NCBI RefSeq assembly: GCF_056746865.1
Contig: NZ_CM163382.1
Reading direction: 5' to 3' (one strand)
Length of the DNA stretch: 64,000 nt
A program made the translations under genes and the position numbers. The notes under the pieces are model-generated. The model saw only the letters and a program-made list of their open reading frames with translations, had not been told where the DNA came from and did not search any database. This document shows, piece by piece, positions 54,781 through 55,673 of the stretch (position 1 is its first letter; every line of letters begins with the position of its first letter).

Positions 54781-55302
54781 ATGTGGACAGTCAGCCTCGC
54801 TGAGGCGTTTATTCATGTATTCCAGGTCGCAGGCAAAATCTTCCTCGACATGATGACCGGGCTTATCCCGATGCTCATCTGCCTGCTGCTGGCCATCAAC
54901 TTCCTGATGAAGCTGGTTGGTACCGTGCGGATGGAGAAAGTTGCCGCCCTGCTCGGCCGCTCGCGCATTCTCACCTACGGCGTGCTGCCGGTGCTCGGCT
55001 GGTTCTTTATGAGCAGCCCCGGCGCGCTCACTTTAGGCAAACTCCTGCCCGAAAAGAGCAAGCCCGGCTATGAGGATGCGCTCGGCACCCCCGCCCATCC
55101 CCTCACCAGCCTGTTTCCCCACGTAGTGCCATCAGAGCTGTTTGTCTGGCTCGGCGTGGCTGCCGGGGTTAAGGCGCTCGGCCTGCCCGTCACCTCGCTG
55201 GCGCTGCGCTATATCGCCGCCGCCATGCTGATTGGTTTAATCCGCGGGATTATCACCGAGTACCTGTTCCTGCGGCTCAGCAAGCGGGGGAATGCGCCAT
55301 GA
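54781..55302 (+). CDS. glucitol/sorbitol-family PTS EIIC (SrlA-like)
   Basis: 173-aa hydrophobic ORF resembling E. coli SrlA (GxxPxLxxLL, YxxxLGxPxH-like segments); GGAGG RBS. Confidence 0.75.
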   Translation: MWTVSLAEAFIHVFQVAGKIFLDMMTGLIPMLICLLLAINFLMKLVGTVRMEKVAALLGRSRILTYGVLPVLGWFFMSSPGALTLGKLLPEKSKPGYEDALGTPAHPLTSLFPHVVPSELFVWLGVAAGVKALGLPVTSLALRYIAAAMLIGLIRGIITEYLFLRLSKRGNAP

Positions 55303-55673
55303 TGATTTACTGAGCACGTATCGTCGCCATCGGGCTGTTTGTCGCCGATGGTCTCACCGACAAAATGCTTATCACCTTCGACAGCAACGGGCCGAAGGAC
55401 TGTCTCGATTACTCGCTATCGCTGGAGCCGTCGTTCCGGGAAGAGAGCCTGATGATACTCCCCGGCGACCGCCTGCTGCTGGCGGGCCACGATTTTCTGG
55501 TGACTGCCGTCGGCAAAGGGGCACAGCAGGCGCTGTTTGAACTCGGCCACCTGACGCTGGTGTTCAATGGTGACCTGAATCCCTGCCATGTCGGCGCGGT
55601 TCATCTCTCCGGCCCGGTGCCGAACCTGCGCGACCTCCACGGCAATCTGGTGATTGAGGAGGGGCGGCCATGA
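55299..55673 (+). pseudogene. glucitol/sorbitol-family PTS EIIA (SrlB-like) with in-frame TGA at codon 5; alternatively a shortened CDS 55365..55673
   Basis: atg atg att tac TGA gca cgt atc gtc gcc atc ggg aligns residue-for-residue with SrlB MTVIYQTTITRIG; downstream 102-aa ORF matches the rest of SrlB (GHLTLVFNG, VHLSGPVP). Confidence 0.6.

What the first reader, a model, noticed from the sequence alone, without database searches (positions are those of the whole stretch)
55299..55313. In-frame TGA at codon 5 of the SrlB-like PTS EIIA gene
atg atg att tac TGA gca cgt atc gtc gcc atc ggg aligns position-for-position with E. coli SrlB MTVIYQTTITRIG, so the gene has a nonsense codon where SrlB has Gln. 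Either the EIIA is made from the internal Met at 55365 (missing about 22 N-terminal residues), the gene is a pseudogene while its neighbours are intact, or this is a base-call error.
Basis: seen in the sequence. Interest (0 to 1): 0.4.

Follow-up and report, generated by a model that had tools for sequence, protein, structure and literature searches.

The report
Recent nonsense mutation in accessory PTS gene
A single C-to-A change has turned the fifth codon (cysteine) of a sugar-transport gene on an E. coli genomic island into a stop codon; it is real and fixed in one successful clone, but it is an ordinary young gene knock-out, not a new mechanism.

Summary
ATG ATG ATT TAC TGA sits at 55299-55313, in frame with the rest of an EIIA-Gut (PF03829) gene that ends at 55673. 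It is not a base-call error. 131 of 5,426 complete E. coli genomes carry the 3-kb module at >=99.9% identity. Every sampled one is 100% identical over the 101 bases around the TGA. All close orthologues (Klebsiella, Enterobacter, Salmonella, Citrobacter, two E. coli) are 124 aa with Cys5. Two draft assemblies carry a gene that differs from the window's by one base, 55313 C->A. Nothing supports a rescue. Rfam's bacterial SECIS models find nothing, although they score the fdhF control at 87 bits. The TGA occurs in only one clone, and position 5 varies across the family. Any product restarted at ATG 55365 (102 aa) or at RefSeq's ATC 55320 (117 aa) loses all or most of strand beta1. The 102-aa form also loses Gly12, invariant in 115/115 homologues. 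No natural short homologues were found. Best reading: a young loss-of-function or strongly hypomorphic allele in an ssrA-island accessory operon, hidden in RefSeq by a non-canonical start call. Low interest.

The parts
53941..54420 (-). Divergent HTH (Cro/CI-type) regulator gene upstream of the PTS module
   Evidence: Pfam HTH_3 and Phage_CI_repr. PGAP: helix-turn-helix domain-containing protein.
54781..55302 (+). Intact srlA-like EIIC-Gut gene (173 aa). Its TGA stop overlaps the EIIA start (ATGA).
   Evidence: PF03608 covers profile positions 2-167 of 167, 201 bits. Same length as in all orthologous loci.
55286..55292 (+). GGGGGAA Shine-Dalgarno-like run serving the original EIIA start at 55299/55302
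   Evidence: Read directly. Function is inferred.
55299..55313 (+). Remnant mini-ORF Met-Met-Ile-Tyr-stop. The TGA at 55311-55313 replaces Cys5. The mutated base is 55313 (C->A).
   Evidence: L021 and L022 differ from the window's EIIA gene only at this base.
55314..55673 (+). Rest of the EIIA-Gut reading frame (119 codons plus stop), still undamaged and in frame
   Evidence: PF03829 scores 85.5 bits when the stop is read through. The nearly invariant His84 (113/115) of the LGH motif is present. Pairwise dN/dS against intact orthologues is 0.08-0.20 for four of five loci (0.28 for the most divergent, L002), against 0.07-0.16 for the neighbours.
55320..55673 (+). RefSeq/PGAP CDS (WP_224110663.1, 117 aa) that uses ATC as its start codon
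   Evidence: locus 9621-9974 of L001 equals window 55320-55673. The exact protein is in the collection.
55365..55673 (+). Longest canonical-start ORF (ATG, 102 aa), as called by older GenBank annotations. It begins at Pfam profile position 21.
55326..55352 (+). 8-bp hairpin 12 nt after the TGA. It is not SECIS-like and not significant.
   Evidence: z = -0.96 against shuffles. No Rfam SECIS hit at E<=10, whereas the fdhF control scores 87 bits.
55670..56650 (+). Intact EIIBC-Gut gene (326 aa). It has its own GAGGAGG Shine-Dalgarno sequence and overlaps the EIIA stop (ATGA).
   Evidence: PF03612 plus PF07663 with full coverage. Sequence read.
56661..57674 (+). Intact Gfo/Idh/MocA oxidoreductase gene (337 aa), the last gene of the four-gene module
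   Evidence: Pfam match. The gene is found with the module in every related locus.

Best explanation
The EIIA-Gut gene of a horizontally acquired four-gene module (EIIC, EIIA, EIIBC, Gfo/Idh/MocA oxidoreductase) carries a recent nonsense mutation at codon 5. The module sits on a genomic island integrated at ssrA. The mutation is a single transversion, TGC (Cys5) to TGA, at 55313. Ribosomes that start at the original, Shine-Dalgarno-served ATG (55299/55302) make Met-Met-Ile-Tyr and then terminate. Full-length EIIA is therefore not made at normal levels, and the allele is a young pseudogene or at best a severe hypomorph. The lesion arose once and spread with one successful E. coli clone. The sampled module sequences in that clone are identical or differ by one or two bases, so no secondary decay has yet accumulated. 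Shown here: the mutation, its direction, its fixation, the intact ancestral allele, and the loss of conserved structure in any restarted product. Inferred: loss of function, and the possible polar reduction of the downstream EIIBC and oxidoreductase genes.
For: Real and fixed: 131 of 5,426 complete genomes. Direction: every close orthologue is 124 aa with Cys5 encoded by TGC. Ancestor: an allele identical except for Cys5 (P0223) is on >=33 contigs. In L021 and L022 the 375-nt gene differs from the window only at nt 15. Across window 55000-56399 there are just 3 differences. The N-terminus matters. Pfam PF03829 starts at residue 3, and the 102-aa ORF starts at profile position 21. Gly12 is invariant in 115/115 diverse homologues, and Tyr/Phe4 and Ile/Val8 are conserved. 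The AF2 model (pLDDT 89, TM 0.76 to 2F9H) places strand beta1 at residues 2-11 and a helix at 15-20. No natural short forms: 137 of 150 representatives match from profile position <=8. The two credible 'short' ones have intact in-frame N-terminal codons upstream. No good restart: only ATC, ATC and CTG lie in frame before ATG 55365. That ATG lacks a Shine-Dalgarno sequence and follows an out-of-frame ATG at 55348. Module decay in E. coli is seen elsewhere: about 43 genomes keep only an orphan EIIA. The same island also carries a frameshifted HamB.
Against: The rest of the ORF is undamaged, and no second lesion exists in the module. This fits a very young pseudogene, but it fits equally a gene still used through low-level restart or readthrough. 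All 131 genomes retain the neighbouring genes intact. RefSeq annotates a 117-aa protein, not a pseudogene. No expression, proteomic or growth data are available. The clade is too clonal for a within-clade selection test.
Confidence: 0.8

Rival explanations
1. Termination-reinitiation rescue. After releasing Met-Met-Ile-Tyr, ribosomes restart downstream, at ATC 55320 (117 aa, the RefSeq model) or at ATG 55365 (102 aa). They make an N-terminally shortened EIIA that still carries His84 and is active enough.
For: ATC 55320 lies only 6 nt after the stop. ATG 55365 is in frame, and Met23 is the commonest residue at that position (68/115). The remaining ORF is intact. AUC can initiate at roughly 0.02-3% of AUG in E. 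coli reporters (bioRxiv 10.1101/063800).
Against: The ATC product lacks residues 1-7, most of beta1. The ATG product lacks beta1, helix 1 and the invariant Gly12. There is no Shine-Dalgarno sequence before ATG 55365, and an out-of-frame ATG at 55348 intervenes. None of the diverse family members examined naturally starts there. Near-cognate starts give only a few per cent at best.
Confidence: 0.1
2. Recoding of the UGA. The stop is read as selenocysteine (UGA at a Cys position in a host with Sec machinery), or read through by near-cognate Trp or Cys tRNA. Either way a full-length 124-aa EIIA results.
For: The UGA aligns with Cys in all close orthologues, the classic Sec/Cys signature. An 8-bp hairpin starts 12 nt downstream. 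Nearly all E. coli carry the Sec-dependent fdhF (5,418 of 5,426 genomes).
Against: There is no hit to any Rfam SECIS model at E<=10, while the fdhF SECIS scores 87.1 bits under the same settings. The hairpin is not better than shuffled sequence (z = -0.96) and has an 11-nt loop, whereas the fdhF element folds with a 4-nt apical loop. From my memory of the literature, it also lacks the bulged U and the GU loop placement that SelB uses. The UGA is confined to one clone, and its sister allele has TGC. Position 5 is variable across the family (Glu, Gln, Ser, Lys and others), so there is no catalytic role for Sec. From general knowledge, ordinary UGA readthrough is well below 1-3%.
Confidence: 0.05
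3. Sequencing or assembly error at 55313.
For: None beyond the prior that isolated stops are sometimes errors.
Against: The sequence is identical in about 130 complete genomes from many laboratories, platforms, hosts and countries. The truncated proteins were called on >=1000 contigs.
Confidence: 0.01

Closest known systems
E. coli SrlB (GutB), the EIIA component of the glucitol/sorbitol PTS (srlAEBD operon)
   Same: Same Pfam family (PF03829) and same size (123 versus 124 aa). Identity is 40% over 108 residues. The Tyr near the N-terminus, Ile8, Gly12, Leu19 and the LGH histidine motif are all conserved. The partners are srlA-like and srlE-like genes.
   Different: This gene is a paralogue on a mobile island, not the chromosomal srl operon. 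The gene order is A-B-E, not A-E-B. It is followed by a Gfo/Idh/MocA oxidoreductase instead of SrlD, GutM, SrlR and GutQ, and the substrate is unknown. The window's copy has a stop at codon 5, where its own orthologues have Cys and SrlB has Gln.
Intact orthologous EIIA-Gut genes of the same four-gene module in Klebsiella, Enterobacter, Salmonella, Citrobacter and rare E. coli (for example P0223, P0224, WP_088144763.1)
   Same: Protein identity is 77-100% outside codon 5, with identical length and operon layout. The module is carried on P4-like (AlpA/DUF927) islands or on integrating conjugative elements.
   Different: They have TGC at codon 5 and encode the full 124 aa.
Crystal structure 2F9H (Enterococcus faecalis PTS EIIA, Gut family)
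   Same: The AF2 model of the read-through protein superposes with TM 0.76, rmsd 2.7 A and 22% identity.
   Different: It is a distant homologue. The comparison serves only to show that the full-length model reproduces the family fold. The assignment of the N-terminal strand to residues 2-11 comes from the AF2 model itself.
Bacterial selenoprotein genes such as fdhF (UGA plus SECIS_2, RF01988)
   Same: An in-frame UGA at a position that is Cys in homologues.
   Different: No SECIS was detectable. The UGA is not conserved beyond one clone, and the residue is not functionally conserved.

Membership tests
PTS EIIA-Gut (PF03829) | Match to the family profile above Pfam's gathering score | tested here: met
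   85.5 bits against a cut-off of 25 for the read-through sequence, and 68.3 bits for the 102-aa ORF.
PTS EIIA-Gut (PF03829) | Conserved histidine of the LGH motif (presumed phospho-acceptor) | tested here: met
   His84 is present in the window. It is found in 113 of 115 diverse homologues.
PTS EIIA-Gut (PF03829) | Uninterrupted ORF that includes the N-terminal strand and invariant Gly12 | tested here: not met
   TGA at codon 5. Gly12 is invariant in 115/115. Strand beta1 spans residues 2-11 in the model.
PTS EIIA-Gut (PF03829) | Fold like the solved family member 2F9H | tested here: met
   TM 0.76 for the read-through model, pLDDT 89. This applies to the ancestral protein, not to a truncated product.
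PTS EIIA-Gut (PF03829) | Operon partners EIIC-Gut and EIIBC-Gut | tested here: met
   PF03608 upstream, and PF03612 plus PF07663 downstream.
Nonsense-mutation pseudogene | Premature stop relative to intact orthologues, with an identifiable intact ancestral allele | tested here: met
   Orthologues are 124 aa with TGC. L021 and L022 differ by the single base 55313.
Nonsense-mutation pseudogene | Secondary degenerative changes or relaxed selection | tested here: not met
   There are no further lesions. dN/dS against orthologues is 0.08-0.20 for four of five loci (0.28 for L002), in or near the neighbours' range. Y66F is a common family variant. This is consistent with a very recent event only.
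Nonsense-mutation pseudogene | Absence of functional protein | not testable with these tools
   This needs proteomics or phenotype data.
Bacterial selenoprotein gene | UGA aligned with Cys in homologues | tested here: met
Bacterial selenoprotein gene | SECIS element immediately downstream of the UGA | tested here: not met
   No Rfam SECIS hit at E<=10. The positive control, fdhF, scores 87.1 bits on RF01988. The hairpin has z = -0.96.
Bacterial selenoprotein gene | UGA conserved among orthologues or lineages | tested here: not met
   The UGA occurs only in one near-identical E. coli clone. All other alleles have TGC.
Natural alternative (downstream) start of EIIA-Gut | Homologues that genuinely begin at the Met23 position | tested here: not met
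   137 of 150 representatives include the N-terminus. Of the 13 that do not, most look like fragments or frameshift products. The two credible cases, P0161 and P0130, are mis-called starts with homologous in-frame codons upstream.

The most novel reading that the evidence does not exclude
The UGA at a Cys codon is partly decoded (Sec through a fortuitous weak hairpin, or Trp/Cys near-cognate readthrough), or ribosomes reinitiate at AUC 55320. In that case the clone keeps a low, tuned level of EIIA rather than none. It would be a natural example of expression down-tuning of a PTS component by an early stop codon.
Probability: 0.05. Interest if true: 0.4.

Novelty: new member of a known kind. 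Interest (0 to 1): 0.12.

Why it matters
The biological significance is small: one more lineage-specific knock-out of an accessory sugar-uptake gene on a mobile island. The practical points are three. First, RefSeq lists this gene as an intact 117-aa protein by accepting an ATC start. This hides a premature stop from pseudogene counts and from metabolic reconstructions of about 2.4% of complete E. coli genomes. Second, base 55313 (A versus C) is a clean single-base marker of that clone's ssrA island. Third, the four-gene module is seen in three states in E. coli: intact, EIIA-null and orphan-EIIA. That pattern suggests it is under weak selection in this species.

Tried and rejected
(1) Selenocysteine. 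The idea is attractive because the UGA replaces Cys. I rejected it for three reasons: no SECIS was found although the fdhF control was positive; the hairpin is non-significant; and the position is variable across the family.

(2) A 'Leu5 revertant' (TTA, protein P0225) turned up in the exact-sequence look-up. It would have been evidence of selection to repair the stop. It is a single metagenome contig at 1.6x coverage. All four of its differences from the window are G:C->T:A changes, so it is most likely read error. Rejected.

(3) Y66F looked like a second, degenerative change because it was unique among close orthologues. Phe occurs in 38 of 115 family members, so it is neutral.

(4) The first AF2 run used a shallow alignment and gave pLDDT 61 with an unreliable N-terminus. 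I discarded it and repeated the run with 115 diverse sequences.

(5) A C/G-ratio scan for a Rho-utilisation region in the 356 untranslated nucleotides was inconclusive.

(6) A literature search for the island or module found nothing relevant.

(7) A within-clade selection test is impossible, because the sampled module sequences are identical or differ by one or two bases across the 131 genomes.

Full report
**Observation**

The sequence at 55299-55313 reads ATG ATG ATT TAC TGA. The first ATG overlaps the TGA stop of the upstream srlA-like ORF (54781-55302). A GGGGGAA Shine-Dalgarno-like run lies at 55286-55292. The TGA is in frame with 119 further sense codons that end at 55673.

Read through, the product is a 124-aa EIIA-Gut protein. 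It matches PF03829 at 85.5 bits, covering residues 3-110 and profile positions 1-107. It is 40% identical to E. coli SrlB. My remembered SrlB sequence was verified as an exact database entry.

**Where the window comes from and whether the stop is an error**

The window is E. coli chromosome (100% identical to strain 118UI). The gene lies on a genomic island inserted at ssrA. The tmRNA gene is at about 39961-40323 and the integrase at 40490. The island also carries AlpA and a DUF927 gene.

The 3,051-bp module (54700-57750) occurs in 133 of 5,426 complete E. coli genomes. In 131 of them identity is >=99%. All 44 evenly sampled rows of those 131 are 100.0% or 99.9% identical. The 101 bases around the TGA are 100.0% identical in all 44 evenly sampled rows of those 131. 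The truncated products, 102 aa from ATG 55365 and 117 aa from ATC 55320, have each been called on >=1000 public contigs. A base-call error is excluded. The lesion is fixed in one clonal lineage, which includes a strain labelled ST69.

**Ancestral state**

A protein search returned 124-aa orthologues from Klebsiella, Enterobacter, Salmonella, Citrobacter and E. coli. Almost all begin MM(I/T)YCARI. The DNA of six orthologous loci has TAC TGC GC at this point. The ancestral codon is therefore Cys (TGC), not the Gln of SrlB. The change is a third-position C->A at 55313.

An exact-sequence look-up found the allele that is identical except for Cys5 (P0223) on at least 33 contigs. In loci L021 and L022 the 375-nt gene differs from the window at that one base only. 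Across window 55000-56399 there are just three differences. The flanks of the module are 5-10% divergent, so the module is a recombination mosaic. Two complete E. coli genomes (strains 200164 and E04) carry an 88%-identical version of the module; in 200164, at the same island site, the EIIA gene was read and is an intact 375-nt CDS.

**Is anything functional still made?**

- **Structure lost.** The Pfam profile starts at residue 3, and the 102-aa ORF begins at profile position 21. In an alignment of 115 diverse family members, Gly12 is one of only two invariant residues. Tyr/Phe4 and Ile/Val8 are also conserved. An AF2 model built on that alignment (pLDDT 89.4) matches the solved family member 2F9H (TM 0.76). 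It places strand beta1 at residues 2-11, a helix at 15-20 and beta2 at 23-28. A product from ATG 55365 lacks beta1, the helix and Gly12. RefSeq's ATC-start product lacks residues 1-7.
- **No natural short forms.** I applied it to 150 representatives drawn from 1.84 billion proteins. Of these, 137 match from profile position <=8. Most of the other 13 look like fragments or frameshift products. The two credible short ones (P0161, P0130) have homologous in-frame N-terminal codons upstream, so they are mis-called starts.
- **Poor restart sites.** Between the stop and 55365 the only in-frame candidates are ATC 55320, ATC 55329 and CTG 55335. ATG 55365 has no Shine-Dalgarno sequence and follows an out-of-frame ATG at 55348. 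Reporter data place AUC initiation at roughly 0.02-3% of AUG (bioRxiv 10.1101/063800).

**Selenocysteine**

A UGA at a Cys position in a Sec-competent host deserved a test. An 8-bp hairpin starts 12 nt after the UGA, but it is no better than shuffled sequence (z = -0.96). Rfam at E<=10 finds no SECIS family in 54400-56000. The same search on the E. coli fdhF locus finds SECIS_2 at 87.1 bits and SECIS_3 at 35.8 bits. The UGA is confined to one clone, and its sister allele has TGC. Position 5 is variable family-wide, with Glu, Gln, Ser, Lys and Cys among others. Sec recoding is unsupported.

**Selection**

Pairwise dN/dS of the EIIA gene against intact orthologues is 0.08-0.20 for four of five loci and 0.28 for the most divergent, L002. 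The three neighbouring genes give 0.07-0.16. Most of the lineage's history was therefore under constraint, and the stop is recent. Y66F, the only other lineage-specific change, is a common family variant. An apparent TTA (Leu5) revertant is a 1.6x-coverage metagenome contig. Its four differences are all G:C->T:A changes, most likely errors.

**Context**

The neighbours are intact: EIIC (173 aa), EIIBC (326 aa, with its own GAGGAGG Shine-Dalgarno sequence) and the Gfo/Idh/MocA oxidoreductase (337 aa). The same four-gene module travels on P4-like islands and on integrating conjugative elements in many Enterobacteriaceae. In about 43 other complete E. coli genomes, judged from one inspected locus and 15 sampled rows, only an orphan EIIA remains in such an element. 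This suggests weak selection on the module in E. coli.

**Conclusion**

This is a real, recent, single-base nonsense mutation (TGC->TGA, Cys5->stop). It makes the EIIA gene a young pseudogene or severe hypomorph, and it is fixed in one E. coli clone. RefSeq masks it with a non-canonical start call. It is an ordinary event. The residual uncertainty is whether trace restart or readthrough, or cross-phosphorylation by the canonical SrlB, keeps the transporter working. Only experiment can settle that.

Noticed in passing
window 51262-53786 (+), junction 52448-52503: Two adjacent ORFs (400 and 427 aa; RefSeq names them 'DEAD/DEAH box helicase' and 'helicase-related protein') are the two halves of one Hachiman HamB helicase. 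They match PADLOC profile PDLC00176 at positions 4-400 and 413-842 of 845. The break lies at an A7 run that forms the heptamer A AAA AAG (52449-52455) in the zero frame. From memory, this is the same slippery heptamer as in dnaX. A -1 shift there gives a continuous 841-aa protein. The 38-nt 'intergenic' stretch translates in that frame to sequence homologous to a continuous Acinetobacter homologue. The same 131 genomes carry it. Most likely this is a homopolymer frameshift pseudogene. Programmed -1 frameshifting was not excluded.
   Followed up: partly
window 57917-59170 (+): The DUF3883 protein between the PTS module and hxlA matches the PADLOC defence protein PD-T4-1 (E = 1.7e-204). Low-GC (27-38%) defence cargo flanks the 60-64% GC PTS module on both sides.
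   Followed up: partly
window 49804-51027 (+): A 407-aa low-GC hypothetical protein lies just upstream of the split HamB. It has no PADLOC hit. By position it could be the HamA partner. Not tested further.
   Followed up: no
L003 6019-6393 (E. coli O152:H23, NZ_CP062901.1) and about 43 other complete E. coli genomes: An orphan, intact 124-aa EIIA-Gut gene (about 80% nucleotide identity to the window's) sits alone in an integrating conjugative element. It lies next to an amino-acid permease and a creatininase gene, with no EIIC or EIIBC partner. The full four-gene module occupies the same ICE context in L004, L012 and L014.
   Followed up: partly
window 39961-41737: The island is integrated at ssrA (tmRNA), followed by an integrase. 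From memory, this is the site occupied by the CP4-57 prophage in K-12.
   Followed up: partly
window 59242-64000 (-/+): Downstream lies a cluster of hxlA (3-hexulose-6-P synthase), hxlB (6-phospho-3-hexuloisomerase), a cupin-type glucose-6-P isomerase, a ptsG-like EIIBC and an SgrR-family regulator. Together with the Gut-type PTS and the Gfo/Idh/MocA dehydrogenase, it might form one pathway for an unidentified hexitol or hexulose. This is speculative.
   Followed up: no
window 55320 (RefSeq WP_224110663.1): PGAP rescues the truncated gene by calling ATC as the start codon, whereas older GenBank records call ATG 55365. Neither flags the premature stop. This is an annotation artefact that hides a pseudogene.
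   Followed up: yes
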